A DNA stretch of 64,000 nucleotides from an uncultured Clostridia bacterium (GTDB lineage Bacteria > Bacillota > Clostridia > Christensenellales > UBA1242). The DNA lies in contig CAKVHF010000001.1 of NCBI GenBank assembly GCA_934748015.1, positions 188,663 to 252,662 on the forward strand. The letters run 5' to 3'. The notes below the pieces were generated by a model that made no database searches, was not told the origin of the DNA, and was given only the letters and a program-made list of their open reading frames with translations. A program made the position numbers and the translations under genes. This document shows, piece after piece, positions 959-49,389 of the stretch. The first letter of the stretch is position 1. Each line of letters begins with the position of its first letter.

Positions 959-2359
959 ATGACTAAAAGCAAAAAAATGTTGGCTACGATAATAGTCTTG
1001 GTGATTATGTTTGTGTCGGTTACCGGTGCATTAGTAGCGGTATTGGTGGCCAACACCCAGAGTGCTAAGTCTAATGTGCATGTTAAATATACAAGTACTG
1101 ATGTTAATGTGAGGGTTGAGGCAAAATATTATGTTGGAACAACTGGAACAGACTTGATGAACGGAACGTCAACCTATATAGATCTTGGTCCAACTTCGGA
1201 GATTGGATCACTTAATCAAGTTGCTAATGAGGTCTTGCTAGACAAGAACAATGATAAGATAATCTATGAGTATAAGTTCACTAACTTGTCGGACAAAATC
1301 CCTGCAACAATTCGCCAAACAGTAAACGCAGATAATACACTAATGATCCCAACAGATACATATAACAATGTGGGTATTACCTACACATCATCTTCTACAT
1401 CTCTAGGATCTGAAGCAACAAGCGATATGACAACACTAAATGCACAAGGACTTCCAATCAACACAACAAGATATGTGTATGTGATTGTTAGCATAACTGA
1501 TTTACTTAAGAATGTAGCATTCAATGGTGATTTTGGCTGGACTCTAGAGAAGGGTGAAGCTATAACAACCAATGCATCAAGCGGAAGCCAATCAATTGTT
1601 GTAGATACCACAGATGAGAAATTGTACAACAAGTCCGCTATGGAAAATCTACAGTTGGTAGTTGGTGTAGAAAATACCGAGCCTGAGTATCCTGTAATTG
1701 AAGGCAAGTGTTTTGTGGGATGGTATACGGATTCTAATTATGAGACTAAGGTAGAATTTCCTTTTTCACCTTCTGCAAGTGACATTTTATATCCAAAGCA
1801 TTTAACAGCGACTACAGATGTTGATTATGTTTATAATACTAATACAGAAACTTATGCTGCTGGCGGTGACTGGATACAATATTCAGGGTCTAGCACTACT
1901 ATTGTAATTGCAGATATATATGATGACGGTCAAAATGGCAAAGCATTGGTAACTGGGATGATGTGTGGATATGGTATGGCATATTTTAAAAATGACTTAG
2001 AAAACATTTATTTACCTTATTCACTTACAGATTTGGGAGATTACACATTTTATGGATGTACAAACTTGACCAACATAAACATACCACACAATGTTAAGAG
2101 AATAGGAACAAGTGCTTTTAATAGTTCTGGAATAACTAGTATCGTTATTGGTGCTCAGTTGAAAAGAATTTCACATTTGGCATTTGCTGGTTGTGATAAT
2201 TTACAAAGTGTAACATTTGAGGTTTGCTTTGGTTGGACTGTAACTGATAAAGAAAATAGTACTACAGGTGATGCTGTAACTATTTCCGCCACCGATTTCG
2301 CCGCCAATGCTACATTGCTAAAAACCACACATGTAAGCAAATATTGGAATAGGGCGTAA
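959..2359 (+). CDS. Membrane-anchored surface protein, paralog 1 (family N-domain + Listeria/Bacteroides-type repeat + BspA-type leucine-rich repeats)
   Basis: ATG at 959 follows AAAAGGA and is in frame within ORF 863-2359. N-terminus MTKSKKMLATIIVLVIMFVSVTGALVAVLVA is a signal anchor. N-domain is shared with the ORFs at 14517, 35335 and 47314. Contains the CFVGWYTD...LYPK repeat, LRR units (IGTSAFNSSGITSIVIG) and the family C-terminal tail NATLLKTTHVSKYWNRA. Confidence 0.8.
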   Translation: MTKSKKMLATIIVLVIMFVSVTGALVAVLVANTQSAKSNVHVKYTSTDVNVRVEAKYYVGTTGTDLMNGTSTYIDLGPTSEIGSLNQVANEVLLDKNNDKIIYEYKFTNLSDKIPATIRQTVNADNTLMIPTDTYNNVGITYTSSSTSLGSEATSDMTTLNAQGLPINTTRYVYVIVSITDLLKNVAFNGDFGWTLEKGEAITTNASSGSQSIVVDTTDEKLYNKSAMENLQLVVGVENTEPEYPVIEGKCFVGWYTDSNYETKVEFPFSPSASDILYPKHLTATTDVDYVYNTNTETYAAGGDWIQYSGSSTTIVIADIYDDGQNGKALVTGMMCGYGMAYFKNDLENIYLPYSLTDLGDYTFYGCTNLTNINIPHNVKRIGTSAFNSSGITSIVIGAQLKRISHLAFAGCDNLQSVTFEVCFGWTVTDKENSTTGDAVTISATDFAANATLLKTTHVSKYWNRA

Positions 2360-2387
2360 TTAGTATAAACATAATTTTAACAAATCT

Positions 2388-2433
2388 AAATTGCAAAGTT
2401 AAGATAGCAAAAAGTCTTGCTTTGCAATTTTTT
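2388..2433 (+). terminator. Intrinsic terminator after paralog 1
   Basis: AAATTGCAAAG (2388-2398) pairs with CTTTGCAATTT (2420-2430), followed by a T-run. Confidence 0.7.
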
Positions 2434-2662
2434 ATTGTGCAAAAATAAATAAATTAAGCCATTATCTTGCTTTTAGTTGACTTACAACAAATTGAGGTAT
2501 TTTTTCCCATTATACTTTTCTCGCCTTACACCGACCCCCGTAATTATATATATAAATATAGTATTATATTAATAATAACATTAATATATTTGCGTGCTCT
2601 TTGTGTGAAAAACAAGTGCGAAAAAAATTTTTAAAAAATTATAAAAAATTGTCATAAATCTG

Positions 2663-2691
2663 TTGACAATGGGATATAATACGCATATAAT
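2663..2691 (+). promoter_or_regulatory. Sigma-A type promoter of the hrcA-grpE-dnaK-dnaJ operon
   Basis: TTGACA (2663-2668), 17-nt spacer, TATAAT (2686-2691), immediately upstream of the CIRCE operator. Confidence 0.75.
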
Positions 2692-2695
2692 CTTA

Positions 2696-2722: not shown

Positions 2723-2757
2723 CAATTAAAAACTAAGAGTGCTAAAAGGTGTATTAA

Positions 2758-11398: not shown

Positions 11399-11410
11399 AC
11401 AAAGGATTAA

Positions 11411-11505
11411 TATTATCGGAAGTCAGAAGAAAGCAGTGCGAAGCAATATTTTCTTATGACTGATGTTTATTCAATCTATGTAACCACAATTTATTGTGGA
11501 TTTGC
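11411..11505 (+). repeat. Structured 95-nt element, tandem copy 1 (upstream of the ABC exporter genes)
   Basis: Conserved 5' TATTATCGGAAGT. Hairpin with 11-nt arms (11422-11432 / 11450-11460) and a 17-nt loop. Conserved 3' CTGATGTTTATTCAATCTATGTAACCACAATTTATTGTGGATTTGC, which includes the CCACAAT-TTA-TTGTGG palindrome. Confidence 0.6.
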
Positions 11506-11558
11506 GTTTAGCAAATTGGTTTGCGAATGCAATGAACAAATCAACATCACATAGATTA

Positions 11559-11653
11559 TATTATCGGAAGTTGTCGGCAAACAGCCCAAAGAGATACTTG
11601 CCAGCAACTGATGTTTTTTCAATCTATGTAACCACAATTTATTGTGAATTTGC
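11559..11653 (+). repeat. Structured 95-nt element, tandem copy 2
   Basis: Same length and same flanks as copy 1, 148 nt downstream. The hairpin arms have different sequence (GTTGTCGGCAA / TTGCCAGCAAC) but the same arm length and the same 17-nt loop length. Confidence 0.6.
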
Positions 11654-11697
11654 AATTATTATAAAAATAAAATATCAATAAAAAAAAGGAAAATAAA

Positions 11698-13987: not shown

Positions 13988-14029
13988 ATATAAGAGTTTT
14001 GCCTTAGTAGCATGCTCTTATATTTTTTT
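13988..14029 (+). terminator. Intrinsic terminator after the ABC permease gene
   Basis: ATATAAGAG pairs with CTCTTATAT, followed by a T-run. Confidence 0.7.
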
Positions 14030-14150
14030 GTAAATATTATGCAAAATATTTTGAATTTTACAAAATATGTGCAATACTATTCGTGTTATGAATAATATGT
14101 TTTTTGATAACATTTTAATAGGCGAAAATATGTTGTTAGACACTCTAACA

Positions 14151-14276
14151 ATGTCTATTTTTAGTCGTTTTGCTGAAGTAAACGGGGGGGGGGTATTACT
14201 AGATAAAACTAGCAATATCTTAACTTATATAACTAAATATTTCGATCATAACAACTTAAGTCGAGAGTGTTTTTAG
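14151..14276 (+). CDS. Candidate leader mini-ORF A (41 aa) running through the G10 tract and stopping in the terminator loop
   Basis: ATG 14151 lies at the 3' foot of the hairpin. It reads ...EVNGGGVLLDK...NNLSRECF, with TAG at 14274-14276 inside the terminator loop. There is no clear Shine-Dalgarno, so coding status is unproven. Confidence 0.3.
   Translation: MSIFSRFAEVNGGGVLLDKTSNILTYITKYFDHNNLSRECF
14184..14193 (+). repeat. Homopolymeric G10 tract in leader A
   Basis: Counted directly: aac-GGGGGGGGGG-tattactagataa. The homologous tract in copy B is G6. Confidence 0.95.
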
Positions 14277-14296
14277 CCGACTTAGGTTGTTTTTTC
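14250..14296 (+). terminator. Intrinsic terminator/attenuator in leader A
   Basis: AACAACTTAAGTCG (14250-14263) pairs with CGACTTAGGTTGTT (14278-14291), 14 bp including one G-U, followed by TTTTT. Confidence 0.75.
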
Positions 14297-14330
14297 GTTT
14301 GTTATAGAGTGTAGTTGTAATATTGGTAAT

Positions 14331-14415
14331 GGCTGTGGGGCGACCACTGGCGTGGTCTAGTGGGCAAAAACTTTTGCCCACATGCGAGCCTTTCGGCTCG
14401 CATTGCCCCACAGCC
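14331..14415 (+). ncRNA. GC-rich four-way-junction (cloverleaf-like) element, copy A; class unknown
   Basis: P1 GGCTGTGGGGC / GCCCCACAGCC encloses three hairpins: GACCAC-TGGC-GTGGTC, GTGGGCAA..TTGCCCAC and ATGCGAGCC-TTTC-GGCTCGCAT. It is a GC-rich island in AT-rich DNA, with a second copy at 47131-47211. Confidence 0.5.
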
Positions 14416-14516
14416 TCTGCACATAATTAACCAAACTAATTATTTCAGAAATACATAACAAAAACATATTTTAAACAAAATTTCACATTATAAATTATAA
14501 GGAGAAATTACATATA

Positions 14517-16670
14517 ATGACGAAAAATAGAAAAATGTTGGCATTGGCTATCGCACTGGTTATTATGTTAGTAACCGTCAGTGGCACACTTATTGCAGTG
14601 CTAGTTGCTAGTAACCAGAGTGCCCAGTCCAAGGTGCATGTTAAGTACACTAGCAGTGATGTCAATGTCAAGGTTGAGGCAAAATACTATGTCGGATCAA
14701 CTGGTACAGACATGGTAGACAAGAGCAATAGCAATGCAAAATCAATAGAACTGGATGCTAATAAGACTTCAGGTTCACTTGATCAACTTGCATCTGAGGT
14801 CTCACTAAGCAAAACTAATAGCAAAATAATTTATGAATATAAGTTTACTAACTTATCTACAACTATCCCAGCCACTATTGGTCAGTTGGTTGAAAATGGC
14901 AGTGTAGTTGTTCCAAAAGATAGCAATAACAATGTGAAACTAACATATACATCATCGTCATCATCACTAGGTGCTGGAGCAAGCAGTGATGCTACAACTC
15001 TTAACACCCAAGGTCTTCCAGCAGGAACAACAAGATATGTCTATGTTATTGTGTCTATTGTAGAATTACTTAACGATGTAGACTTCGAGGGTACATTTGG
15101 CTGGGATCTAGCAAAAGGTGAGGCTATTACATCCAATACAACTGGAGGAAGCCAATCTATCGTTGTAGACACCACAGACGTGAAATTGTATAACAAATCT
15201 GCTATGGAGAATATACAATTGGTAGTAGGAGTAGAGAACACCGAACCTGACTACCCAATGATAGAAGATAAATGCTTTACAGGGTGGTATTCCGATTCTG
15301 GCCTTAACAATAAGGTAGAATTTCCAATCATCCCAACCGCCGATACTATACTATATCCTAAGCACGAGACAGCGACAAGCGACCTGACATATATGTACGA
15401 GTCAGAATCTTATGCTGTAGGCGATGACACCTTTGGGTATCAGGGCTCAGAGACAGATATTGTTATTCCTGATGTATATGATGATGGAACAAATGGATTA
15501 CATCCTGTTACAAGGATATCATGGTGTGCTTTTGAGTTTGAAGAAGCGTCCGATATGGTTCAAGTAGACATAAATAGTATCTACATGCCTAACACTATAA
15601 CGGAAATAGGCGAGATGGCTTTTTATGAATGCAGAATATCAAGTATTTTCATTCCGTCCAGTGTAACCATTTTACAGTATACTGCAATTAGTACTTGTCC
15701 AAACTTAACTAATATAGAAGTAGACAGTAATAATGCAACATATCGTAGTGAAAGTAATTGTATAATAGATAGGGCTACTAATGAGTTGGTATATGGCTGT
15801 GTTAACTCTAATATACCAGAAAGTGTCACTAGTATAGGATCTTCTGCCTTTTCTGATTGCAGTGGCTTAACAAGTATAACCATTGGATCAGGTGTCACCA
15901 GTATAGGGGATTCTGCCTTTTCTGGATGCAGTGGCTTAACAAGTATAATAATTCCAGATAGTGTAACTAGTATAAGTGATTCTGCCTTTTCTGGATGCAG
16001 TGGCTTAACAAGTATAACAATTTCCAATAGTGTCACTAGTATAGGATCTTATGCCTTTGATGGATGCAGTGGCTTAACAAGTATAACAGTATCTAGTGGT
16101 AACACAGTATATCGCAGTGAAGGAAATTGTATAATAGAGAAATCCTCTAATACATTAATACTAGGTTGTAAAAATTCAATTATTCCTAGCGGTGTCATCA
16201 GTATAGGGATGAATGCCTTTTTTGATTGCAGTGGCTTAACAAGTATAACAATTCCAGATAGTGTAACCAGTATAGGGGAGAATGTCTTTCGAAATTGCAG
16301 TGGCTTAACAAGTATAACCATTGGATCAGGTGTCACCAGTATAGGGATAAGTGCTTTTTCTTATTGTAGTGGCTTAACAAGTATAACAATTCCAGATAGT
16401 GTCACCAGTATAGAATACTCTGCCTTTTCTGATTGCAGTGGCTTAACAAGTATAACTATAGGTAGCGGAGTGAAACACATAGGAAACAACGCATTTAGCA
16501 ATTGTTCAAAACTAACTAGTGCAACTTTTAAGAATACAACCGGCTGGACTGTAACCACCTCTAGCACAGCAACGACTGGTACAGCAGTAACAATATCAAC
16601 AACTGATCTTGCTGCCAATGCGACACTATTGAAAACTACACATGTAAGTAAGTATTGGAACAGAGCATAG
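14517..16670 (+). CDS. Membrane-anchored surface protein, paralog 2 (717 aa; N-domain + Listeria/Bacteroides-type repeat + long BspA-type LRR array)
   Basis: RBS AAGGAG. Signal anchor MTKNRKMLALAIALVIMLVTVSGTLIAVLVA. Contains CFTGWYSD...LYPK. About 9 near-identical 23-aa LRR units (SVTSIGxSAFSxCSGLTSITI). C-terminal tail NATLLKTTHVSKYWNRA. Confidence 0.85.
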   Translation: MTKNRKMLALAIALVIMLVTVSGTLIAVLVASNQSAQSKVHVKYTSSDVNVKVEAKYYVGSTGTDMVDKSNSNAKSIELDANKTSGSLDQLASEVSLSKTNSKIIYEYKFTNLSTTIPATIGQLVENGSVVVPKDSNNNVKLTYTSSSSSLGAGASSDATTLNTQGLPAGTTRYVYVIVSIVELLNDVDFEGTFGWDLAKGEAITSNTTGGSQSIVVDTTDVKLYNKSAMENIQLVVGVENTEPDYPMIEDKCFTGWYSDSGLNNKVEFPIIPTADTILYPKHETATSDLTYMYESESYAVGDDTFGYQGSETDIVIPDVYDDGTNGLHPVTRISWCAFEFEEASDMVQVDINSIYMPNTITEIGEMAFYECRISSIFIPSSVTILQYTAISTCPNLTNIEVDSNNATYRSESNCIIDRATNELVYGCVNSNIPESVTSIGSSAFSDCSGLTSITIGSGVTSIGDSAFSGCSGLTSIIIPDSVTSISDSAFSGCSGLTSITISNSVTSIGSYAFDGCSGLTSITVSSGNTVYRSEGNCIIEKSSNTLILGCKNSIIPSGVISIGMNAFFDCSGLTSITIPDSVTSIGENVFRNCSGLTSITIGSGVTSIGISAFSYCSGLTSITIPDSVTSIEYSAFSDCSGLTSITIGSGVKHIGNNAFSNCSKLTSATFKNTTGWTVTTSSTATTGTAVTISTTDLAANATLLKTTHVSKYWNRA
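15822..16530 (+). repeat. Intragenic tandem 69-nt (23-aa LRR) repeats, near-identical at the DNA level
   Basis: The core tgcagtggcttaacaagtataac recurs about every 69 nt in two blocks (about 15822-16097 and about 16190-16530). Confidence 0.85.
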
Positions 16671-16807: not shown

Positions 16808-17050
16808 GTGTTTGTATCAAGATGCTAATATGGTGCTGGCAATATTATTTTTTTATTTTTTGTCCGTATTTTTTTGCTTAAATGTTTTAAAATCTCGGTA
16901 GTAATTAATGGTTTTTGGACAAAAATTTACAAAATTTGATATATAATGCCAAAAAGTTTGATTTTTTGGAATAAAAAGAGTAGAGTAAAAACAATTGTGA
17001 AAAATGTTAATAGGCACTATATTTCGTTTGGTTTAGGAGAAAAATTGAAG

Positions 17051-20000
17051 ATGAGATCGATTGCTAAGAACTTATTATATATAGTAGGCATAGTGTGTCT
17101 ACTCTTTTTGTGTTCTTATGCGTTTGTGGCATGTGGGGATGTAAATATATCTAGCCTAACAATAGATATTGATGATAGTTCTTATACATATGATGCAGAT
17201 AGTAAGACTATAAAATTTGCTTATGGCGAATTGGATAATAAGCTAGAAACACTGCTAGCGTCTATTACGGTTACTGCCCATTATGATGACGACTCTGAGG
17301 TTGCAATTATTGAGGGTGATGATTATAAGTTCTCCACAGACATTGTTAAACCTTCTACTGGCAATATTGCACCTGGTAGTTATTATATCCAATACACATG
17401 TGGTGGCAAAAGAGTAAAAATAAATATAGTTGTAGCGTCAACCATTGTTTCTGTCCCACAACTATCGCTAGATACTATCAATGTCGATGAAGGTGGGGTA
17501 ATTAACTTAGAGTACAACAAAGACGGCTATGACCTGCTAGATTTAGGCATATTTGACAATATTTCTGATAAGATCACAATAGGTGGTGATACATTTGCAA
17601 CCGAAGTGGGAGAGTATACAATTACTTTTGCATGTGCTGATCGCAATTATTCTTGGTCAGACGGAACAAAGGGAACAGTTGCTAAGACTGTGACTTGGAA
17701 GATTGTCCCTAAGGCTGTGTTAGTCCCACAATTTACGACCTTATTTTATGAGTATAACCATGACGATAACTACAATGGTATTGCAAATAGTCTAATCGTC
17801 CCTAGTGCTTTTGATAACGATGTATTGACTATTTCCGGTGATCTCAACGCAACTGATGTCGGAGTGTATAATGCAGTAATAAGCCTGAAAGATAGCCACA
17901 ATTATGTATTTGCTGATGGAGCAATGACTAATATCCGTTGGTATATAACTAAGAGGACTTTGGCTGTTCCGACCTTGACTAGCAATCATGTGTCATACTG
18001 TAGTTATGTTGAGCCTTTGGCACAAAGCCCTTATATTAACTTAGACAGTAATTATATTGAAGAAATAATGAACTTTAACACTGGCATCACAGACACAGAA
18101 GGCTTGATCGGTAAGCATACTGCAACTATTGAGATAGATAGTAATTATCGCAATAATTTCCAGTTTGAAGATAATGTATATGTTAAGACTATTGATTGGT
18201 ATCTAGACAAGGGCAGTTATGTTGATATCAATGGTAACTCTCTGTGGACTTTGCCTCAAGATTATGTAATTGCTACAGATAACAATGGCAAAGATATTGA
18301 GTTTGGTGCAGTCTTGGGTGATATAATCGACACAGTTAAGTTGTGCAATGCATGGAAGGATGTCAGCAAGCAAAACCTGGTGGGAGAATATATATTTGAT
18401 AGCAATGCAAAACTATCATATAGCAGTGATTTAGGCAATGCATCTGGCAGTCGTATAATTAATGTCAATATTACATTCCGTCACGGCAGTGGTTATTACA
18501 ATGACGCAATAGTTTCAGTGCCGGTGTTTGTCCACAATATAACTATTGATATTACTCCAGCATGGATTACATCCGCTAGCATGGTGTATGATGGCACAGC
18601 CAAGAGTGTAACGGATAGTGTAGAATGTGACAAAATCTCCAGCATAGAATATTCTTATGCTTATTGTGATGTAGCAACTGGTGAGTACACTCCAATTGAT
18701 GCAAGCGAAATAATAGATGCTGGCACTTATAGAGCAACTGCACACTATGTGTATGACAAGAATCAGTACAGACTATGTATTGGTGATGAGTATTCCGATT
18801 ATTCTACTTATAATTTTGTTATATCCAAGCAGGTTGTTGATGTCGATGATGCTGATATTATATCTGTTGCAAACAACAATACAACATACAATGGCAAATA
18901 TCAGGCTTGCAGTATCTCGCTTAACCCTAAATATAGCCAAGATTTTGATATAACCATTAAGTATTATGCGTTTGACAATCTTATCACAAGTACGCTTTCC
19001 AATCCTAGTGGTTTGCCAAAAGATGTATTGCTAGACATAGACGGCAATGTAGTCAGTTATAGTGTGATTGTAGAGATTGATGCATCCAAGTCTAACAATT
19101 ATGTTCTTTTGAGCAACAACAAGATTTTGGTCAATGGTGGCTTTACTATATCCAAAGCGGTTGTTGTGTTTGATGACTTTATAACTTTGCCGGAGATAAT
19201 TATATATCAGTTGCAAAATACTGATAACTTGACAGTGCCTAGATGTGACTTTAGAGGCGTTAATGAAGAGATAGTAACTGACGCAGAATTTGAGATTGTC
19301 AGCATTGATAATATTGCACGTGATGACGATAGTGTAGAGGTGATCTTTAACATTGTATCCAACAATTACGAAGGCTTGATAGGGGTAATGGCGGAAGTAA
19401 GGCCATTGACAACATCTATCACATATAACAACACTAAGATTTCTTTCCAAGACCTATGTGATATGGAAGAGATTGCGGTCGGTGATGAACTCTTAGTAAC
19501 CACATCGCAAGGGCTAAAACTATATCTAGATGGCGTAGAAACAGATACAATATGTCTTGATACAGCCAACACGGATGTTACTTTGACTATTGCTATTGAC
19601 GAAGAAAATGTTATATTTACTAAAACTTTGCATGTATTTAATCGCAACATAATCCCTAGCATTATCATTACTGACGGCGAAAGATCGATGAGTTGCAATA
19701 TCCACGCAATGTACGAGAATGAATTGGATAATGCTGTAGTCTATAGATATGATTATCTTTCTCGTTCAGTAACAATAACTTTTGATGGCAATATTGCAGA
19801 AAAATATCAATTGTATCTGTCTATAGATAATAGCGATAATATCTTGCTAGAAGACGGCAAAATAACAATTGCAGATGTAAGACTTTGTGACCATATAGAG
19901 GTAACCTACACACAAGATTGCAAAACAATGTCTGCATTGATGTTGTATTTTGAAGAAATCACTGCAATAAATATAGTAAGTGCTACATACAAGAATTTAA

Positions 20001-21177: not shown

Positions 21178-22188
21178 ATGCAGAATAAGAAACGCAATAT
21201 AACACTTATAGTAGTTGGTAGTATTATTTTGGTTATAACTTTGTTTTGTCTTATCTATTTCTGTTCACCATGGAACAAAGATTTCTTTAACAAAGCAACC
21301 AAAGAATTTGATATCCCGGGACTAGATACTAAGTTTTGTCCACAAGGAATGACATATCTAGATAACTCGGATGAGTATATTGTTGGGGGATATATGACCG
21401 ACAATACACCATCTAGATACTATGTAGTAGATCCTGATGGCGAAGTAAAATATTTTACACTAACAATCAATGGTGAGGACTTTGTAGGACATTCTGGTGG
21501 TATCACCAGCTATCAAGATAGCATCTGGATAGTGTCTAAAGATAGTGAGATAGGTTATTGCTATCACATATATGTAAGTGATGTTATTGCTGTTGCTAAT
21601 GGTGGCAAAGTGGCTGTAACTGGCAAATTTGATACTCACAACGGAGCAGATTTCGTATTTAACGACAATGGAACTCTTTGGGTAGGAGAGTTCTACAAGA
21701 AAGGTAAATATGACACCGAAGGAAGCCATTTCATTACGACATCTAGTGGCGAGGTTAATCCTGCTATTGCATTTGGCTACACTATTGACTCTTCAACCGA
21801 TATTGGAGTAAAAGATAATACTCCAGTTATGGCATTGTCTATCAGAGGCCTGTGCCAAGGTATTGCTGTGACAGAAGATGGCAAATTTATACTTAGTACA
21901 TCTTACGGCTTGGCTGATAGCAATCTATATATGTACGATAATGTTCTAGCTAAGTCAATCACTGAAACAATCAAGGTTGGCGACACCAATGTCCCACTTG
22001 CAATATTGGATGATAGTGTACTATTATCCACAGTCAATGCACCAGCAATGTCAGAGGAGATTGTTGTCAAGGATGGTAAATTGTATGTGCTATTTGAGTC
22101 CGCTTGCAATAAATATAAGTTATTTAATCGTGTAAGAGTGAGAAATGTATATAGTTTGCCTCTTAGTGCTTTTGACGCTAATAAATAA
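21178..22188 (+). CDS. Hypothetical membrane-anchored extracytoplasmic protein (336 aa)
   Basis: RBS AGGAGAG. N-terminal TM helix (ITLIVVGSIILVITLFCLIYF). The remainder appears beta-rich. No motif recognised. Confidence 0.5.
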   Translation: MQNKKRNITLIVVGSIILVITLFCLIYFCSPWNKDFFNKATKEFDIPGLDTKFCPQGMTYLDNSDEYIVGGYMTDNTPSRYYVVDPDGEVKYFTLTINGEDFVGHSGGITSYQDSIWIVSKDSEIGYCYHIYVSDVIAVANGGKVAVTGKFDTHNGADFVFNDNGTLWVGEFYKKGKYDTEGSHFITTSSGEVNPAIAFGYTIDSSTDIGVKDNTPVMALSIRGLCQGIAVTEDGKFILSTSYGLADSNLYMYDNVLAKSITETIKVGDTNVPLAILDDSVLLSTVNAPAMSEEIVVKDGKLYVLFESACNKYKLFNRVRVRNVYSLPLSAFDANK

Positions 22189-24632: not shown

Positions 24633-24669
24633 TATGTCGCAAAAGCATTATTTTGTGGCATATTTTTTT
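24633..24669 (+). terminator. Intrinsic terminator; copy 1 of a 37-nt identical direct repeat flanking the phase-variable paralog
   Basis: tATGTCGCAAAA-GCATTA-TTTTGTGGCAT + T7 (stem includes G-U pairs). Identical to 25950-25986. Confidence 0.75.
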
Positions 24670-24800: not shown

Positions 24801-25941
24801 ATGAATACAACAAGAAAAATGTCTTTAGCCTTGGTGCTATTGTGCGTGACACTGGCTATTACTGTGATGACATTAGGATTGGTATTGGTTTCTGGAACTC
24901 AAGATGTAATAACCGACCTAGATATTCATTATGCGGGGGGGGGGTGTCACTTTTGAAGTAGGTGATGACTGCATTAACAAGAGTGACTTTGCAACCATCA
25001 AAGTTGACAAGGTTACTAAGACTGCTGTCGTACAACAACCAGCCAATCCCAATCAGTTAGGCAAAACATTTGAGGGCTGGTACACAGATAGTAGTATAAC
25101 TCAGAAGGTAGATAAGTTCCCTGTAACTCTATCTAAGGGTGATGTGCTATATGCCAATTATTATGATGCATCCACATGGCTGACATTGTCTTGGAATGCT
25201 ACAACTAGTTCATACTCTGTCGAAAGGAGTAGCTCGTCTTCTGCAACAGAGGCAATAATTCCAGATATATATGACGATGGGACACATGGGGTTGCAGTGG
25301 TTGATACTATAGGATCATATTCGTTGACTGATGTAACAACTTTGACCAATATTTATTTGTCTAACAACATCACAACAATTAGCGAGAGGGCTTTTTCCGC
25401 TTGTGCTAATGTAACTGCAATTAATGTTCCGGAAAATGTTGCTACAATCGGTGCATATTGGCTACAAAATATGAAAAAGCTAAAAACCATAAATTGGAAT
25501 GCAATAAATGCGGAGTACACTGCAGAATTTTCGCAAACATATAGTGTTGGTTCGCAATACGGAATTGACTTTGTTGTTGGTTACAAAGTGCAGAGTATTC
25601 CTAGATATTTGTTCAATCCACAATCTTCAAAATCTTATGTTAAATCTATTGATATGACCAATGCTACATCGCTAAAGGAAATTGGATCTTGGGCTTTTGG
25701 TGGTTGTTATAAGATAACATCTCTTACAATTCCTGCCAGTGTAGAATTGATTGGAGCATATGCTTTTACCGAATGTACTGGTTTATCCAGTATAACATTT
25801 GAAGTATCAGATAACTGGTATAGATTTTCATCCGAGACAGCAACCACTGGTGGAACTGCGTTGTCTTTAGGCTCTGCTTATACTGATGCTAAATGGATAA
25901 GAGATACTTATGCACAATATTGGTGGAGAAGAATTTCATAA
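24801..25941 (+). pseudogene. Surface protein paralog 3, split by a G10 tract (currently frameshifted; candidate phase-variable gene)
   Basis: ATG 24801 follows AAGGAG and encodes the signal anchor MNTTRKMSLALVLLCVTLAITVMTLGLVLV. This frame ends at TGA 24954-24956, just after G10 (24935-24944). The -1 register continues as VTFEVGDD...FEGWYTD...LRR units...YAQYWWRRIS through 25941. G9 or G12 would fuse both parts. Confidence 0.75.
24935..24944 (+). repeat. Homopolymeric G10 tract inside the paralog 3 coding sequence
   Basis: Counted directly: cattatgc-GGGGGGGGGG-tgtcac. Confidence 0.95.
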
Positions 25942-35334: not shown

Positions 35335-36954
35335 ATGACAAAAAGTAAAAAAATGTTAGCCTTAGTCATTGCATTAGTTGTTATGTTGGTTGCAGTCAGT
35401 GGTACACTTATTGCAGTACTGGTTGCTGGCAACCAGAGTGCCCAGTCTAAGGTACATGTTAAGTACACTAGTAGTGATGTCAATGTTAAGGTAGAGGCTA
35501 AATACTATGTTGGATCAACTGGTACAGACATGGTAGACAAGAGCAATAGCAATGCAAAATCTATAGAACTGGATGCTAATAAGACATCAGGTTCACTTGA
35601 TCAACCCGCATCTGAGGTCTCACTAAGCAAAACTAATAATAAAATAATATACGAATATAAGTTTACTAACTTATCCACAACCATCCCAGCCACTATCGGT
35701 CAGTTAGTTGAGAATGGCAGTGTTGTTGTGCCAAAAGATAGCAATAACAATGTGCATCTAACATACACATCATCATCATCCGCACTAGGTTTAGGAGCAA
35801 CTAGTGACGCAACTACACTTAACACGCAAGGTCTTCCAGCAGGAACAACAAGATATGTATATGTTATTGTATCTATTGTAGAACTACTTAATAATGTAGA
35901 CTTTGAGGGCACATTTGGCTGGGATCTAGCAAAAGGTACTACTGCTAGCCTAGATACAACAGGTAGCGGAAATAGTATCGTTAATGTTAACACATCTCAG
36001 ACAGGTTTCTACAACGCAGCATCACTACAAAATATAGACCTTATGGTAGGTGTAGAGAACCAAGAACCAGATATCTATCCAATGATAGCTAACAAATGCT
36101 TTACAGGTTGGTACACCAATTCTGCACTTACAACCAAAGCAGTCTTCCCTATGGTAGTTACTGCGGATACTAAGTTGTATCCAAAAAATGAAACTGCCAC
36201 GAGTGGGTTGGTTTATGGGTATAGTGCCTCATCACAAACATATCACATAGGTGATGGAAGTTCATCTTTTGCAGGAACTGCAACAGAAATTATAATTCCA
36301 GACATGTTTGATGATGGCACTAATGGATTAAAAGAAGTAAAAAGTGTTTATCCAGAGGCTTTTAGTGGTTGTGTGAATATATCAGAAGTTGTTTTTCCTA
36401 AGAATTTAGTAGCTATTGGTAGATACGCATTTGACGGATGTTCAAGTTTAACAAGCATTAATCTTCCAAAAGGGTTGATAGAACTTAATCGCTATGCGTT
36501 TAAAGATTGCAATAATGTAAAAAGTATAATAATTGAAAGCGAAAATCTTATGACATTTGATAATAGTGTTTTTTATAATTGTAGTAAGAGTTTAGTCAGT
36601 ATCAAAGTAACATCTAGCAGTTTATATCTAAGATCTGAAGGAAACTGCTTAATAGATACAAGGTATAATATACTGCTTATAGGATGTCGAAATTCAGTTA
36701 TACCTAATTATATAACAGATATTGCACCATGGGCATTTTACAATTGTAAACAATTATCAAATATTAATATACCTGTAAGTGTAGAGTATATTGGCAATGA
36801 AGCATTTTATGGTTGTGACAATTTAACTAGTGTTGTATTTGATGATACAATTGGTTGGAAATCTGGAGGGACGAGTATTGACATTTCTAAAGTAGATTAT
36901 ACTGCGAACGCATTGTTATTAAGAACTGCAGATGGTTCATTTTCTAAATCATAA
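35335..36954 (+). CDS. Membrane-anchored surface protein, paralog 4 (539 aa)
   Basis: RBS GAGGAG. The first ~200 codons are nearly identical in DNA to paralog 2 (MTKSKKMLALVIALVVMLVAVSGTLIAVLVAGNQSAQSKVHVKYTSSDVNVKVEAKYYVGSTGTDMVDKSNSNAKSIELD...). Contains CFTGWYTN...LYPK and divergent LRR units. Lacks the KYWNRA tail. Confidence 0.85.
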   Translation: MTKSKKMLALVIALVVMLVAVSGTLIAVLVAGNQSAQSKVHVKYTSSDVNVKVEAKYYVGSTGTDMVDKSNSNAKSIELDANKTSGSLDQPASEVSLSKTNNKIIYEYKFTNLSTTIPATIGQLVENGSVVVPKDSNNNVHLTYTSSSSALGLGATSDATTLNTQGLPAGTTRYVYVIVSIVELLNNVDFEGTFGWDLAKGTTASLDTTGSGNSIVNVNTSQTGFYNAASLQNIDLMVGVENQEPDIYPMIANKCFTGWYTNSALTTKAVFPMVVTADTKLYPKNETATSGLVYGYSASSQTYHIGDGSSSFAGTATEIIIPDMFDDGTNGLKEVKSVYPEAFSGCVNISEVVFPKNLVAIGRYAFDGCSSLTSINLPKGLIELNRYAFKDCNNVKSIIIESENLMTFDNSVFYNCSKSLVSIKVTSSSLYLRSEGNCLIDTRYNILLIGCRNSVIPNYITDIAPWAFYNCKQLSNINIPVSVEYIGNEAFYGCDNLTSVVFDDTIGWKSGGTSIDISKVDYTANALLLRTADGSFSKS

Positions 36955-46813: not shown

Positions 46814-46814
46814 A

Positions 46815-46848
46815 AACTATCCTATAGATAATATGGGATAGTTTTTTT
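46815..46848 (+). terminator. Intrinsic terminator after hemW
   Basis: AACTATCC pairs with GGATAGTT, followed by a T-run. Confidence 0.75.
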
Positions 46849-46975
46849 ATAAAAATTTGTGAAATATTTAATTTTATTTTGAAAAAATATATGATTGTGA
46901 CATAATATAAGTATGAGGAAAAATGTTTGCATTTATAGTTTAATAAGAGATTTTACATTGTTAAATGTTTTAACA

Positions 46976-47098
46976 ATGGCTTCTTTTAGGCAAGATGTAA
47001 TAGTTCAACGGGGGGTATTACTAGATAATTCTAGTATTATCATAACCGATATAACTCAATATAACGATAATAACAACTTAAGTCGATGGTGTTTCTAG
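46976..47098 (+). CDS. Candidate leader mini-ORF B (40 aa) running through the G6 tract and stopping in the terminator loop
   Basis: ATG 46976 lies at the hairpin foot. It reads ...VQRGVLLDN...NNLSRWCF, with TAG at 47096-47098 in the terminator loop. No clear Shine-Dalgarno. Confidence 0.3.
   Translation: MASFRQDVIVQRGVLLDNSSIIITDITQYNDNNNLSRWCF
47010..47015 (+). repeat. Homopolymeric G6 tract in leader B
   Basis: Counted directly: caac-GGGGGG-tattactagataa. Confidence 0.95.
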
Positions 47099-47118
47099 GC
47101 AACTTAGGTTGTTTTTTC
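47072..47118 (+). terminator. Intrinsic terminator/attenuator in leader B
   Basis: AACAACTTAAGTCG (47072-47085) pairs with CAACTTAGGTTGTT (47100-47113), followed by TTTTT. Confidence 0.7.
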
Positions 47119-47130
47119 GTATTTTTTATA

Positions 47131-47211
47131 GGCTTTGGGCGACCACTGTCGTGATCTAGCGGGCGTTTCCGCCCACCATGCGAGCCTTTTTGGCTCGCAT
47201 GACCCAAAGCC
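47131..47211 (+). ncRNA. GC-rich four-way-junction (cloverleaf-like) element, copy B; class unknown
   Basis: P1 GGCTTTGGG / CCCAAAGCC encloses GACCAC-TGTC-GTGATC, GGGCG-TTTC-CGCCC and ATGCGAGCC-TTTTT-GGCTCGCAT. P1 differs from copy A by a compensatory G:C to T:A change. Confidence 0.5.
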
Positions 47212-47313
47212 CTCGCTTGCTTGTATCAACTATTTTCCCTCAAATAAAAATGTATTGTATACAAAGCAAATATATTTGTACAAAAATAAGAATACGTTAA
47301 AAAAGGAAAAATA

Positions 47314-49389
47314 ATGATAACAAAAAACAGAAAAATGCTAGCGTTGATAATTGCATTGGTTATAACATTGGTTTCGGTCAGTGGGACTCTTATTGCAGTA
47401 TTGGTTATCAGCAACCAGAGTGCACAATCAACAGTTCATGTTAAATATACCAGTACTGATGTTAACGTAAGAGTAGAAGCTAAGTATTATGTAGGTACGA
47501 CAGGTACAGACATGGTAGACAAGAGCAATAGCAATGCAAAATATCTAGATTTAGATGCTAATAAAACATCAGGTTCTCTTGATCAACCATCTAACGAAGC
47601 GGTCGAGCTAAGCAAAACTAATAACAAAATAATCTATGAATACAAGTTCACCAACTTATCTACAACTATCCCAGCAACTATAGGTCAGCTGGTCGAAAAT
47701 GGCAATGTTGTTGTTCCAAAAGACAGCAATAACAATGTAAAACTAACATATACATCGTCTTCAACATCCCTAGGTTCAGGAGCAACTAGTGACGCAACTA
47801 CACTTAATACCCAAGGACTTCCTGCAGGTACAACAAGATATGTCTATGTTATTGTGTCTATTGTAGAACTACTTAATGATGTAGATTTTTCTGGCAGTTT
47901 TGGTTGGGATCTAGCGAAAGGTGAGGCTATTACATCCAATACAACTGCAGGTAGTCAATCTATCGTTGTAGACACCACAGACGTGAAATTGTATAACAAA
48001 TCTGCTATGGAGAATATACAATTGGTCGTAGGAGTAGAGAACACCGAGCCGGACTACCCAATGATAGAAGACAAATGTTTTACTGGTTGGTATACTGATG
48101 AAAGTTTAGAAACTAAAGCAGTTTTTCCATTAACTCCAACTGCTGAAACCAAATTGTATCCTAAGTATGAAACAGCAACAAGTGATCTTACTTATGTGTA
48201 TAATGAAGCATCACAAAGCTATTTTGTTGGGGATGGAACTACATCATATTCCGGGTCGACAAAAAATATTGTTATTCCTGATACATATAACAATGGAACC
48301 AATGGATTACATGCGGTAACATGTATTAACGATTGTGCGTTTTTAAAAACTAGTATTATTAGTGGTATTGTAATTCCAGGTTCTGTTAGTAATATAAGTA
48401 TAGGAGATAATAGGGCATTGAAAGGCGGCATAACTACAGTGTCTGTATCTTCGGCTAATCCTGTATATAAGAGTGAGAATACATGTATAGTACGCAAGGC
48501 TGATAATTGCTTAATATACGGAGGCCAGAAATATGATATACCAAAATATGTAACATCAATATATGATTATGCATGTTTTGGTTCATATGCTACAACAATT
48601 GCATTAAGAGAAGGTGTTGTTAGTATTGGAAGGCATGCTTTTTATAATAATAAGTTTGCTGAGCTTATTATTCCATCTAGTGTTGTCAATATTGATGAAT
48701 TGGCATTCTCTTCTTGTATGCACTTAAAAAGGGTTACTTTTAAAGAAGGCTTACTTAGTATAGGAAAAGAGGCATTTAGAGGCTGTGTTTCTCTAACAAG
48801 TGTTACAATTCCGAGCACAGTAACCAGTTTGGATCGTCTAGCTTTTATTAATTGTACAGCATTAAATTCTTTTTGGGTTTCAGATAATAACAAAGTGTAT
48901 AAGGGTGAAAGTAATTGTGTAATGTTAAGAGCAGAACCTACTGTTTTGTATTGTTGTTTTGCAAATGGTACTATTCCTGCCTATATAACTAAAATAGGTG
49001 ATTATGCATTTTACTATAATACGGCACGTGGCTCGCTTCATATACCAAAATCTGTAACGGAAATAGGTGTTAGTGCTTTTGAATCTTCTTCAATTAAGGG
49101 TAGCGTCGTTATACCAGATAGTGTAATTACTATTGGAAATTCTGCTTTTAAAAGCTGTAACATAACAAGTGTGACAATTGGTAATGGCGTTAAAAGTATA
49201 GGGGTAAACGCTTTTTATTATTGTGGTAACTTAACAAATATTACATTCAATACAATAACTGGCTGGACTGTCACAAATGACAGTAGCGCAACCACTGGAG
49301 ATCCAGTTACCGTGTCAAAATCTGATACAAAAGCTAATGCGACACTACTAAGAACAACACATGCAAGTAAATATTGGCACAGGGCATAG
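47314..49389 (+). CDS. Membrane-anchored surface protein, paralog 5 (691 aa)
   Basis: Signal anchor MITKNRKMLALIIALVITLVSVSGTLIAVLVI, the family N-domain, CFTGWYTD...LYPK, a divergent BspA-type LRR array, and the tail ANATLLRTTHASKYWHRA. Confidence 0.85.
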   Translation: MITKNRKMLALIIALVITLVSVSGTLIAVLVISNQSAQSTVHVKYTSTDVNVRVEAKYYVGTTGTDMVDKSNSNAKYLDLDANKTSGSLDQPSNEAVELSKTNNKIIYEYKFTNLSTTIPATIGQLVENGNVVVPKDSNNNVKLTYTSSSTSLGSGATSDATTLNTQGLPAGTTRYVYVIVSIVELLNDVDFSGSFGWDLAKGEAITSNTTAGSQSIVVDTTDVKLYNKSAMENIQLVVGVENTEPDYPMIEDKCFTGWYTDESLETKAVFPLTPTAETKLYPKYETATSDLTYVYNEASQSYFVGDGTTSYSGSTKNIVIPDTYNNGTNGLHAVTCINDCAFLKTSIISGIVIPGSVSNISIGDNRALKGGITTVSVSSANPVYKSENTCIVRKADNCLIYGGQKYDIPKYVTSIYDYACFGSYATTIALREGVVSIGRHAFYNNKFAELIIPSSVVNIDELAFSSCMHLKRVTFKEGLLSIGKEAFRGCVSLTSVTIPSTVTSLDRLAFINCTALNSFWVSDNNKVYKGESNCVMLRAEPTVLYCCFANGTIPAYITKIGDYAFYYNTARGSLHIPKSVTEIGVSAFESSSIKGSVVIPDSVITIGNSAFKSCNITSVTIGNGVKSIGVNAFYYCGNLTNITFNTITGWTVTNDSSATTGDPVTVSKSDTKANATLLRTTHASKYWHRA

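What the first reader, a model, noticed from the sequence alone, without database searches (positions are those of the whole stretch)
959..49389. Five-member modular surface-protein family scattered between housekeeping operons
The ORFs at 959-2359, 14517-16670, 24801-25941 (split), 35335-36954 and 47314-49389 all lie on the + strand.

They share a common build:
- a signal-anchor N-terminus
- a ~230-aa N-domain in four of the five (…NQSAQSKVHVKYTSSDVNVKVEAKYYVG…IIYEYKFTNLS…TRYVYVIVSI…FGWDLAKGEAI)
- a Listeria/Bacteroides-type repeat (CFTGWYTD…LYPK)
- a highly variable BspA-type LRR array
- in three members, an almost invariant tail (TGWTVT…ANATLLKTTHVSKYWNRA)

The 5' modules of paralogs 2, 4 and 5 are far more similar at the DNA level than the LRR parts. 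Long runs are identical, for example ggtacagacatggtagacaagagcaatagcaatgcaaaat. This pattern points to gene conversion or cassette exchange between conserved ends.

Together with the G tracts, it looks like an antigenic- or adhesin-variation system in a lineage where such systems are not, to my knowledge, characterised.
Basis: partly seen in the sequence, partly recalled or inferred. Interest (0 to 1): 0.6.

Follow-up and report, generated by a model that had tools for sequence, protein, structure and literature searches.

The report
Phase-variable LRR surface-protein gene family
An uncultured human-gut Clostridia bacterium with a small genome carries at least eight scattered genes for membrane-anchored leucine-rich-repeat surface proteins; their shared front ends are patched together by gene conversion and some copies carry unstable runs of G, a familiar way of varying the cell surface seen here in an unstudied lineage.

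Summary
All five + strand genes exist and share a signal anchor, a Flg_new-like repeat, a BspA-type LRR_5 array and a C-terminal tail. Four also carry a ~170-aa N-domain.

The window is 100% identical to a 1.08-Mb ENA metagenome scaffold that holds at least three more paralogs.

**Supported**
- Gene conversion in the 5' module. PHI gives p<=0.001 for 5 and 7 paralogs, and max-chi2 gives p=0.003. In another strain, the g4 allele is 98-99% identical to g2 over ~200 nt but only 84-93% to its own ortholog.
- Unstable G tracts. The only G/C runs of 6 or more in ~150 kb of this species sit at family genes.
- g3 is split by an internal G10. It is still under purifying selection (dN/dS 0.11), and another sample carries an in-frame allele.

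**Not supported**
- LRR cassette shuffling. The LRR parts of g4 and g5 are 100% identical between strains.
- Silent donor cassettes. None were found.
- A diversifying N-domain. Its dN/dS is 0.05-0.25.

Best reading: a repertoire of adhesin-like proteins on a constant stalk, with ectopic conversion and poly-G contingency switching.

Open lead: in g2, g5 and two paralogs outside the window, the leader has a G-tract-bearing upstream ORF whose stop lies in, or at the foot of, a terminator-like hairpin.

The parts
959..2359 (+). g1: family member of 466 aa. Build: signal anchor, N-domain, Flg_new-like repeat, short LRR_5 array, conserved tail.
   Evidence: The ortholog P0005 in strain BRIT20 (L082) is about 99% identical and syntenic.
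14517..16670 (+). g2: family member of 717 aa with a long, internally repetitive LRR_5 array. Its 5' module is a mosaic: g4-like at about 14577-15056 and g5-like at about 15117-15237.
   Evidence: Gene positions 856-1300 are 93-100% identical to a paralog at another locus in strain BRIT20.
14023..14516 (+). g2 leader module, in order:
- promoter-like TTGAAT-N18-TACTAT at about 14052-14083
- upstream ORF 14088-14276 (62 aa)
- G10 tract 14184-14193
- terminator-like hairpin 14251-14290 followed by a T run
- GC-rich multi-hairpin element at about 14331-14416
   Evidence: Homologous to the g5 leader from about 500 nt upstream. Sequence and ORFs. Hairpin dG is -15.8 kcal/mol. The GC-rich element has 37 predicted pairs, some compensatory. 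No Rfam match.
14184..14193 (+). Poly-G tract (G10) inside the g2 leader ORF. It is G9 in strain BRIT20 and G5 in a strain 96% identical.
24801..25941 (+). g3: a family member with the signal anchor but no N-domain. It is split by a frameshift at its G10 tract. Removing one G gives an intact 379-aa protein.
   Evidence: dN/dS is 0.11 at dS 0.167 against L089. An in-frame 380-aa allele, P0172, is on L109.
24935..24944 (+). Intragenic poly-G tract (G10) in the out-of-frame state.
   Evidence: It is G10 in the window strain (window and its source scaffold, L086) and in L087 and L089. L109 has the interrupted GGGGGGAGGAGG, in frame. P0170's fused reading frame implies G8.
24633..24669 (+). Upstream copy of a perfect 37-nt direct repeat that brackets g3. 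By eye it contains a terminator-like hairpin. The second copy is at 25950-25986.
35335..36954 (+). g4: family member of 539 aa. Its 5' module differs by 5-13% between strains, while its LRR part is 99-100% identical.
47314..49389 (+). g5: family member of 691 aa. It is 100% identical in a strain whose flanks are 99.1% identical.
46842..47313 (+). g5 leader module, in order:
- promoter 46879-46906
- upstream ORF 46913-47098 (61 aa)
- G6 tract 47010-47015
- terminator-like hairpin 47073-47112
- GC-rich element at about 47130-47212

The whole module is absent from the BRIT20 allele.

Best explanation
**What it is.** These genes belong to a lineage-specific multigene family, with at least 8 members on a 1.08-Mb scaffold. 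The proteins are N-terminally membrane-anchored and look like adhesins.

**Build of each protein**
- A roughly 24-residue hydrophobic anchor.
- A previously undescribed ~170-aa beta-sandwich domain. Its role as a constant stalk is inferred.
- A Flg_new-like repeat.
- A BspA-type LRR_5 solenoid whose length and sequence are specific to each locus. Its role as the ligand-binding part is inferred.
- A conserved C-terminal cap.

Each gene stands alone, with its own ribosome-binding site and promoter-like site (seen by eye upstream of g1, g2, g4, g5 and P0001), between housekeeping operons on the strand that carries nearly all the window's genes.

**Two processes act on the family**
1. Shown: homologous, presumably RecA-dependent, ectopic gene conversion moves tracts of about 100-450 nt between paralogs. 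This happens mainly in the 5' module. That module therefore evolves in concert and differs between strains, while the LRR arrays stay stable.
2. Shown for tract polymorphism, inferred for switching: poly-G tracts make individual members contingency loci.
   - In g3 the tract is in the coding sequence just after the anchor, and its length sets the reading frame.
   - In g2, in paralog P0001 and, as short G5-G6 runs, in g5 and one g2 allele, the tract lies in a leader ORF upstream of a terminator-like hairpin.

**Net effect (inferred).** A population expresses varying subsets of a fixed repertoire of binding specificities.
For: **Architecture**
- Domain content.
- The AF2 model of the anchor plus N-domain has pLDDT 90. 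It shows a helix at residues 3-31 followed by a beta-sandwich.
- The N-domain has no Pfam or NCBIfam match.
- It has 235 remote relatives among 1.84 billion representatives. The listed matches start at about residue 30 in nearly all. Those checked are stand-alone ~200-aa proteins or are fused to LRR_5.

**Family size and scatter**
- The window is identical to ENA MERR22-1 scaffold_1.
- That scaffold also carries paralogs P0003, P0006 and P0008 at other housekeeping loci.
- Two further loci are occupied in strain BRIT20.

**Gene conversion**
- PHI: none of 1000 permutations reached the observed value, for both 5 and 7 paralogs.
- Max-chi2: p=0.003 for three triplets.
- The BRIT20 g4 allele is 98-99% identical to window g2 at alignment columns 300-500, but 84-93% to its own ortholog.
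- Its LRR part is 100% identical to the window's.
- The longest exact run shared by paralogs is 71 nt or less, and independent assemblies agree, so assembly chimeras are unlikely.

**G tracts**
- About 150 kb of this species contains only four G/C runs of 6 or more, and all are at family genes.
- G9 matches: 4 observed against 0.03 expected.
- g3 states: G10 (out of frame), inferred G8 (out of frame), and an interrupted 12-nt in-frame version.
- g3 dN/dS is 0.11, with 5 synonymous and 0 nonsynonymous changes in the anchor part.
- The g2 leader tract is G10, G9 or G5 in different strains.

**Precedent.** The Listeria LRR adhesin gene inlA has a 5' homopolymeric tract with reversible frameshifts (PMC2831843).
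Against: - No expression, localisation or binding data exist. Surface exposure rests on the predicted anchor only.
- Switching within a clone was not observed. Only differences between assemblies were seen. G10, the out-of-frame state, is the consensus in the three distinct g3 alleles whose DNA I could read.
- PHI with only the four window paralogs is not significant (p=0.17).
- Most family genes are as stable between strains as their flanks (g1, g3, g5). Conversion is therefore occasional, not a fast switch.
- The effect of the leader tracts on expression is unknown.
Confidence: 0.7

Rival explanations
1. Cassette-type antigenic variation. Variable LRR cassettes would be exchanged between conserved 5' and 3' ends, so that one locus displays many alternative LRR arrays. 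The models are pilE/pilS, vlsE and MgPar.
For: - Conserved ends flank a variable middle.
- Mosaic identity exists.
- A 450-nt block covering the junction and first LRRs is shared at 93-100% between g2 and a paralog at another locus in another strain.
Against: - The LRR parts of g4 and g5 are 100% identical between strains whose flanks differ by 1-2%.
- All members are full length and have their own ribosome-binding site, and five of the upstream regions compared have a promoter-like site. No truncated or silent copies were seen.
- The tails are only 67-75% identical at DNA level between the window's paralogs.
- No recombinase or inverted repeats were found.
Confidence: 0.08
2. Neutral concerted evolution only. 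The family is an ordinary paralog expansion. Conversion is a by-product of sequence similarity. The G tracts are incidental, and g3 is a decaying pseudogene.
For: - Purifying selection, not diversifying selection, acts on the N-domain.
- Most alleles are stable between strains.
- G10, the out-of-frame state, is the consensus in the three distinct g3 alleles read.
- The paralog P0004 carries an in-frame stop.
Against: - g3's dN/dS is 0.11 over dS 0.167, with both halves intact in their respective frames. A long-dead pseudogene would not show this.
- All four G/C runs of 6 or more in ~150 kb lie at family genes, in a 36% GC genome.
- An in-frame g3 allele exists in which the tract is broken by synonymous G-to-A changes.
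Confidence: 0.15
3. g3 is expressed constitutively at a low level from the G10 template. RNA polymerase slippage or ribosomal +1 frameshifting on the G run would do this, rather than DNA-level phase variation.
For: - The same G10 length is conserved across lineages about 5% apart.
- Purifying selection persists despite the frameshift.
Against: - Other tract states exist in other samples, namely the inferred G8 and an interrupted in-frame allele. DNA-level change therefore does occur.
- No stop or rare codon follows the run in the zero frame, as is usual for +1 frameshift sites (the comparison rests on my own knowledge).
Confidence: 0.1
4. The mosaics and tract differences are artefacts of metagenome assembly. 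The causes would be paralog collapse, chimeric contigs and homopolymer errors.
For: - The window comes from a metagenome scaffold.
- Many contigs from other samples break at the g2 leader.
- One low-coverage 1.2-kb contig, L085, is clearly chimeric.
Against: - Paralogs share exact runs of 71 nt or less.
- Independent assemblies from different samples and assemblers reproduce the window exactly. L096, L098, L099 and L101 are 100% identical over 2.5-9.6 kb each, up to and into the g2 leader.
- G10 in g3 was recovered in the window's source scaffold and in two independent assemblies of a lineage about 5% diverged.
Confidence: 0.04

Closest known systems
Listeria internalin multigene family (InlA, InlB and relatives)
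   Same: - Firmicute surface proteins that combine an LRR domain with Listeria-Bacteroides (Flg_new / B-repeat) modules.
- Many paralogs per genome.
- Recombination among paralogs (my own knowledge).
- inlA carries a 5' homopolymeric tract with reversible frameshifts (PMC2831843), just as g3 carries a 5' poly-G.
   Different: - The domain order is reversed, and the anchor is an N-terminal transmembrane helix, not a C-terminal LPXTG or GW module.
- The LRR type is LRR_5 (BspA). Nothing but LRR_5, LRR_8 and Flg_new was reported at E<=0.01.
- An extra, undescribed N-domain is present.
- The tract is poly-G, not poly-A.
BspA-like LRR_5 proteins (Tannerella forsythia BspA, Treponema denticola LrrA, Streptococcus HupY/LrrG, and the Trichomonas and Entamoeba BspA families)
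   Same: - The LRR_5 repeat type.
- A partial match to NCBIfam 'adhesin_HupY' (88 bits against a cut-off of 1250).
- Large paralog families of putative adhesins (PMC2843621).
   Different: - None of these is described with this N-terminal anchor plus beta-sandwich module, as far as Pfam, NCBIfam and the papers searched show.
- The scores fall far below the equivalog cut-off, so the proteins share only the repeat, not orthology.
Poly-G/C contingency loci of Campylobacter jejuni, Neisseria and Haemophilus (my own knowledge)
   Same: - Homopolymeric G tracts of 8-12 nt in, or upstream of, surface-structure genes.
- Tract length sets the frame or the expression level.
- Tracts are concentrated in a few gene families.
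   Different: - The host is an AT-rich, spore-forming Clostridia gut commensal.
- In-clone switching has not been shown.
- Several tracts lie in a leader ORF about 330 nt upstream of the gene, rather than in a promoter spacer or the gene itself.
Mycoplasma variable surface gene families (vlhA, vlp, MgpB/MgPar) (my own knowledge)
   Same: - A small-genome, low-GC organism devotes many loci to a paralogous surface family.
- Simple repeats upstream control expression (vlhA GAA repeats, vlp poly-A).
- Segmental gene conversion occurs (MgPar).
   Different: - No silent partial copies.
- The proteins are LRR proteins with a transmembrane anchor, not lipoproteins.
- Conversion here homogenises a conserved module and does not diversify an exposed one.
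Leader-ORF transcription attenuation (for example E. coli pyrBI) (my own knowledge)
   Same: The leader ORF runs into a terminator hairpin. A translating ribosome could therefore prevent termination.
   Different: - Here the proposed variable would be a heritable frameshift in a G tract within the leader ORF, not nucleotide or amino-acid supply.
- This is entirely untested.

Membership tests
BspA-type LRR proteins (Pfam LRR_5, PF13306) | Match to the LRR_5 profile above the gathering score | tested here: met
   All five genes score 71-255 bits against a cut-off of 27.7.
Listeria-Bacteroides repeat (Pfam Flg_new, PF09479 / TIGR02543) | Match above the gathering score | tested here: inconclusive
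   g3 scores 36.6 bits against a cut-off of 27, so it is met. g1, g2, g4 and g5 score 17-23 bits, which is sub-threshold. TIGR02543 gives 12-13.5 bits against 20.95.
Listeria internalins | Internalin N-terminal cap and the LRR-adjacent Ig-like domain | tested here: not met
   Pfam reported only LRR_5, LRR_8 and Flg_new at E<=0.01.
Listeria internalins | C-terminal LPXTG or GW wall anchor | tested here: not met
   The proteins end in ...KYWNRA or similar. The translations contain no LPXTG motif or C-terminal hydrophobic segment.
Simple-sequence contingency locus (phase variation by slipped-strand mispairing) | A long homopolymeric tract placed where its length sets the reading frame or expression | tested here: met
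   The G10 at 24935-24944 separates the anchor ORF from the main ORF of g3. The G10 at 14184-14193 lies in the g2 leader ORF.
Simple-sequence contingency locus (phase variation by slipped-strand mispairing) | Tract length differs between strains or populations and changes the frame | tested here: met
   g3: G10, inferred G8, and an interrupted in-frame allele. g2 leader: G10, G9 and G5.
Simple-sequence contingency locus (phase variation by slipped-strand mispairing) | The gene is otherwise intact and under purifying selection | tested here: met
   g3 dN/dS is 0.11 at dS 0.167. Both parts are open in their own frames in strains about 5% apart.
Simple-sequence contingency locus (phase variation by slipped-strand mispairing) | Reversible ON/OFF switching at high frequency within a clonal population | not testable with these tools
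   This needs read-level data or culture. Only consensus assemblies were available.
Cassette-type antigenic variation (pilE/pilS, vlsE, MgPar, msp2) | One expression site plus silent, truncated or promoterless donor copies | tested here: not met
   All ten members seen are full length and have their own start codon and ribosome-binding site, apart from the g3 frameshift and the stop in P0004. Five of the upstream regions compared (g1, g2, g4, g5, P0001) show a promoter-like site.
Cassette-type antigenic variation (pilE/pilS, vlsE, MgPar, msp2) | The exposed variable region differs between closely related strains at the same locus | tested here: not met
   The LRR parts of g4 and g5 are 100% identical between strains. 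The part that varies is the conserved N-module.
Invertible-DNA switches and shufflons | Inverted repeats flanking a promoter or gene segment, with a site-specific recombinase nearby | tested here: not met
   No recombinase was found among the window ORFs scanned. The one contig suggesting an inversion, L085, has 1.8x coverage and three segments, so it is a chimera.

The most novel reading that the evidence does not exclude
The ~330-nt leader shared by g2, g5 and paralog P0001, and in part by P0003, is a heritable, phase-variable transcription attenuator.

**Proposed mechanism**
- A promoter drives a leader ORF of 55-62 codons.
- The peptide sequence of this ORF is not conserved, but its reading frame is.
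- In g2, g5 and P0003 its stop codon lies in the loop of a terminator-like hairpin; in P0001 (read as G10) it lies at the foot of the hairpin's 5' arm.
- When the poly-G tract keeps the ORF in frame (G10 in g2, G6 in g5), a ribosome reaches the hairpin and blocks termination. The adhesin gene is then transcribed.
- A one-base slip (G9, as in the BRIT20 alleles of g2 and P0001) stops translation about 70 nt earlier. The terminator forms and the gene is silenced.

The GC-rich four-way-junction RNA that follows in g2, g5 and P0003 would be a second, unknown leader element.
Probability: 0.22. Interest if true: 0.7.

Novelty: new variant of a known kind. Interest (0 to 1): 0.45.

Why it matters
**What it shows**
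- An uncultured, small-genome Clostridia lineage from the human gut, seen in Hadza samples among others, spends at least eight loci on a surface LRR family.
- That lineage uses poly-G contingency tracts. This mechanism is documented mainly in Gram-negative pathogens and mycoplasmas.

**What it provides**
- An uncharacterised N-terminal domain family with a confident predicted fold. It has 235 representative clusters and no Pfam or NCBIfam model.
- A clear natural example where gene conversion homogenises the stalk of an adhesin family while the binding arrays stay locus-specific.
- A testable candidate for a new type of phase-variable leader.

**Limits**
- The general concept is well known: an LRR adhesin family with homopolymer switching and paralog conversion.
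- No function has been shown.

Tried and rejected
1. **Genome scan with N-domain patterns.** The scan of GTDB representative genomes found no relatives. The species is absent from that set. A RecA scan placed it only near uncultured Clostridia MAGs, at about 80% identity.
2. **AF2 with a 4-sequence alignment.** It failed, with pLDDT 40. The 71-sequence alignment succeeded.
4. **Profile search of the N-domain against PDB sequences.** It gave only insignificant antibody light-chain hits.
5. **L085 as evidence of DNA inversion.** Rejected. It is a 1.2-kb contig at 1.8x coverage, made of three segments in alternating orientation.
6. **G tract as a promoter spacer.** The scan found no + strand promoter spanning the tract. 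The hexamers I could find by eye are poor and are not conserved among copies.
7. **Metagenome scan for GGGGGTATTACTAGATA.** It returned 14 unrelated chance matches.
8. **Rfam.** No family matched the leader or the GC-rich element.
9. **The leader ORF as a conserved small protein.** By hand count, substitutions between copies run about 3:1 nonsynonymous to synonymous, so the peptide is not conserved. Only the open frame is.
10. **Last profile search of the 5.8-billion-protein set with the N-domain alignment.** It added no names or annotation.
11. **Literature searches.** No description of this family or lineage was found.

Full report
**1. The observation**

The five + strand ORFs exist as described.

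- Pfam finds a strong BspA-type LRR_5 region in all five.
- It finds a Listeria-Bacteroides (Flg_new) repeat that passes the curated cut-off only in g3. The repeat is sub-threshold in the other four.
- A protein alignment shows the shared build: hydrophobic N-terminus, a ~170-aa N-domain in g1, g2, g4 and g5, the CFTGWY...LYPK repeat, a variable LRR array, and a C-terminal tail.
- The tail is identical in g1 and g2 and near-identical in g5.
- g3 has the signal anchor but lacks the N-domain.
- The neighbours are housekeeping genes:
  - Fe-ADH | g1 | hrcA-grpE-dnaK-dnaJ
  - ABC transporter | g2 | a 1389-aa protein
  - nifU | g3 | spoIIGA-sigE
  - recA | g4 | MBL hydrolase
  - lepA-hemW | g5

**2. 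Source and true size of the family**

- Look-ups with the window's own NifU, LepA, ABC ATPase and RpoD returned loci 100% identical to the window. They come from ENA ERZ28615298, MERR22-1 scaffold_1, which is 1,084,506 bp long.
- Exact copies of parts of the window also occur in a Hadza gut assembly and in several Logan assemblies.
- The best RecA match among 185,579 GTDB species representatives is about 80%, to uncultured Clostridia MAGs from human and ruminant guts. The organism is therefore an uncultured Clostridia with sporulation genes and 36% GC.
- The same scaffold carries three more paralogs at other housekeeping loci: P0003, P0006 and P0008.
- A strain 98-99% identical (BRIT20-1) has members at two further loci: P0001 between obg/yhbY and ffh, and P0004 after the formate-tetrahydrofolate ligase gene.
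- The family therefore has at least 8 members per genome.
- A search of 5.8 billion proteins with the g2 5' module found only 11 clusters, all from metagenomes or MAGs.

**3. The N-domain**

- It has no Pfam or NCBIfam match.
- A profile search of 1.84 billion representatives found 235 relatives at E<=1e-3.
- The domain starts at about residue 30, after a hydrophobic N-terminus, in nearly all the matches listed. Those checked are stand-alone ~200-aa proteins or are fused to LRR_5 arrays.
- With a 71-sequence alignment, AF2 gives pLDDT 90. The model is a long helix (residues 3-31) followed by a beta-sandwich.
- Foldseek against PDB finds nothing below E=1e-3.
- The hydrophobic stretch of about 24 residues is longer than a typical signal-peptide core. 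I therefore read it as a signal anchor. This is an inference.

**4. Mosaic identity and gene conversion**

*Within the genome*
- In a codon alignment, g2 is 90-98% identical to g4 over positions 61-540. It then switches to 95-97% identity with g5 at 600-720.
- Maximum-chi-squared tests on three triplets give p=0.003, the floor for 300 permutations.
- My PHI implementation gives 0 of 1000 permutations for 5 and for 7 within-genome paralogs.
- With only the four window genes it gives p=0.17.

*Between strains*
- At the recA|g4 locus, the BRIT20 allele is 99-100% identical to the window through recA and through the LRR part of g4. It is only 87-95% identical in the 5' module.
- At alignment columns 300-500, that allele is 98-99% identical to the window's g2, but 84-93% to its own ortholog.
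- Gene positions 856-1300 of g2 are 93-100% identical to P0004 of BRIT20, which sits at a different locus. The flanking parts are 51-81% identical.
- Paralogs share exact runs of 71 nt or less, and independent assemblies agree. I therefore discount assembly chimeras.

*Limits on the variation*
- g5 is 100% identical between two strains whose flanks are 99.1% identical.
- g1 is about 99% identical, and g3 diverges like its flanks.
- dN/dS in the N-domain among paralogs is 0.05-0.25, even where dS exceeds 1.
- Conversion is thus occasional, and it acts on a module that is conserved by selection.
- The LRR arrays, the presumed binding parts, are locus-specific and stable. This is the opposite of a cassette system that diversifies an exposed region.

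**5. The G tracts**

*Distribution*
- The window has only two G/C runs of 7 or more. Both are G10.
- Chance expectation for G9 matches is 0.03, against 4 observed.
- In a further 86.7 kb of this species, the only run of 6 or more is a G9 upstream of P0001.
- All four runs of 6 or more (counting the G6 upstream of g5) are at family genes.

*The tract inside g3*
- The tract follows the anchor-coding part. With G10, the anchor ORF stops 4 codons later, and the main ORF is in the +1 frame.
- Deleting one G gives a 379-aa protein.
- G10 is present in the window strain (the window and its source scaffold, L086) and in two assemblies of a lineage about 5% diverged, L087 and L089.
- Across that divergence, dS is 0.167 and dN/dS is 0.11. 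The anchor part has 5 synonymous and 0 nonsynonymous changes. The gene is therefore not a decaying pseudogene.
- The 90% protein cluster of g3 contains a 380-aa in-frame member. Its DNA, on L109, reads GGGGGGAGGAGG, so the run is broken by two synonymous G-to-A changes.
- The cluster also contains a 365-aa member whose fused frame implies G8.
- This fits a contingency locus. The closest precedent is the 5' poly(A) tract of Listeria inlA (PMC2831843).
- In-clone switching could not be tested.

**6. The leader module**

This part is unexpected and only partly explained.

*Layout*
- g2 and g5 are homologous from about 500 nt upstream of the start codon.
- By eye, a promoter-like site (TTGnnn-N17/18 plus an extended -10) aligns in five of the upstream regions compared: g1, g2, g4, g5 and P0001. 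The consensus scan reported it only for g5.
- In g2, g5 and P0001, and partly in P0003, extra sequence lies between that promoter and the ribosome-binding site: about 330 nt in g2 and g5, less in P0001. In order it holds:
  - a hairpin with a compensatory change;
  - the G tract: G10, G9 or G5 in g2 alleles, G6 in g5, G9 in P0001;
  - a second hairpin;
  - a terminator-like hairpin with a 13-bp stem and a 14-nt loop, followed by a T run, with dG -15.8 kcal/mol;
  - in g2, g5 and P0003, a GC-rich element that folds into a multi-hairpin junction. It has 37 pairs, several with compensatory changes in the closing stem.
- Rfam has no match for any of this.
- The module is missing from the BRIT20 g5 allele. 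Its distal half is missing from the g2 allele of a strain 96% identical, deleted between short imperfect direct repeats.

*The leader ORF*
- An ORF of 55-62 codons runs through the leader and contains the G tract.
- Its stop codon lies in the loop of the terminator-like hairpin in g2, g5 and P0003.
- In P0001, read as G10, the stop lies at the foot of the hairpin's 5' arm.
- A fully open frame across this AT-rich stretch occurs in only 1-2% of shuffles.
- By hand count, substitutions between copies are about 3:1 nonsynonymous to synonymous, so the peptide itself is not conserved.
- The G9 alleles (BRIT20 g2 and P0001) truncate the ORF about 70 nt before the hairpin.
- Frame variants of the P0003-type ORF exist in the protein collection.

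*Hypothesis*
- I propose that translation of the leader ORF into the hairpin prevents termination, and that tract length makes this heritable.
- It is untested, and I give it about 0.2.
- The alternative that the tract is a promoter spacer is not supported.

**7. Comparison with known systems**

- The proteins are members of the BspA/LRR_5 class by profile score.
- They are not internalins. Nothing but LRR_5, LRR_8 and Flg_new was reported, there is no LPXTG, and the domain order is reversed.
- They work like a contingency-locus adhesin repertoire of the Campylobacter/Neisseria kind, and like the Listeria inlA homopolymer switch.
- They resemble mycoplasma surface families in genome economy.
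- They fail the defining tests of cassette-type antigenic variation: no silent copies, and no variation of the exposed region between strains.
- They also fail the tests for invertible switches.

**8. Verdict**

- Novelty: a new variant of a known kind. It combines a new lineage, a new N-terminal domain and a new leader module.
- Interest is moderate (0.45). The main open lead is the G-tract leader ORF and its terminator.

Noticed in passing
window 14331-14416 and 47130-47212; L001 5772-5858: A GC-rich element of about 85 nt lies in the 5' leaders of g2, g5 and paralog P0003. It folds into a closing stem plus three hairpins: 37 predicted pairs, with compensatory changes in the closing stem. 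It has no Rfam match. Whether it acts as RNA, as DNA or as a small mobile insert is unknown.
   Followed up: partly
window 24633-24669 and 25950-25986: A perfect 37-nt direct repeat brackets g3 together with its promoter region. By eye it contains a terminator-like hairpin. It looks like the nifU-operon terminator was duplicated when the gene was inserted. No such repeat flanks g1, g2, g4 or g5.
   Followed up: partly
window 16946-21115 and 21178-22188: A 1389-aa protein lies directly downstream of g2. It has a lipoprotein-type signal (…AFVAC↓GD) and no Pfam or NCBIfam match. A 336-aa protein follows it, with an N-terminal hydrophobic segment and also no match. Both may be further surface proteins.
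   Followed up: partly
window 11410-11658: A tandem duplication of about 100 nt with a 148-nt period and 77% identity lies upstream of the ABC-transporter ATPase gene. Strains differ by an indel here: alignments to L082, L095 and L097 break at 11505-11607.
   Followed up: no
window 59440-61497 (- strand): A TraG/VirD4-type type IV secretion coupling protein sits on the minus strand, where the otherwise steady positive GC skew flattens. It may mark the edge of an integrated conjugative element.
   Followed up: no
L083 10001-12157 (strain BRIT20, after the formate-tetrahydrofolate ligase gene): A g2-like paralog carries an in-frame TAA where g2 has TAT (…DINSI*MPNT…). This splits it into ORFs of 356 and 361 aa. 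The same locus also follows a 4342-aa gene upstream of secA.
   Followed up: partly
L085 1-1207: A 1.2-kb contig at 1.8x coverage joins three pieces in alternating orientation: the region downstream of g2, an internal part of g2, and the 5' end of g4. I judged it an assembly or read chimera, not an inversion.
   Followed up: yes
L096, L099, L100 and L101 (contig ends); L095: Many independent assemblies break just after the ABC permease gene, at or a few tens of bases either side of the g2 leader's G tract. The cause could be repeat-induced assembly breaks or poor coverage at the homopolymer.
   Followed up: no
window 50656-51326: A cluster of six tRNA genes (Pro, Met, Asp, Phe, Thr, Tyr) lies downstream of g5.
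   Followed up: no
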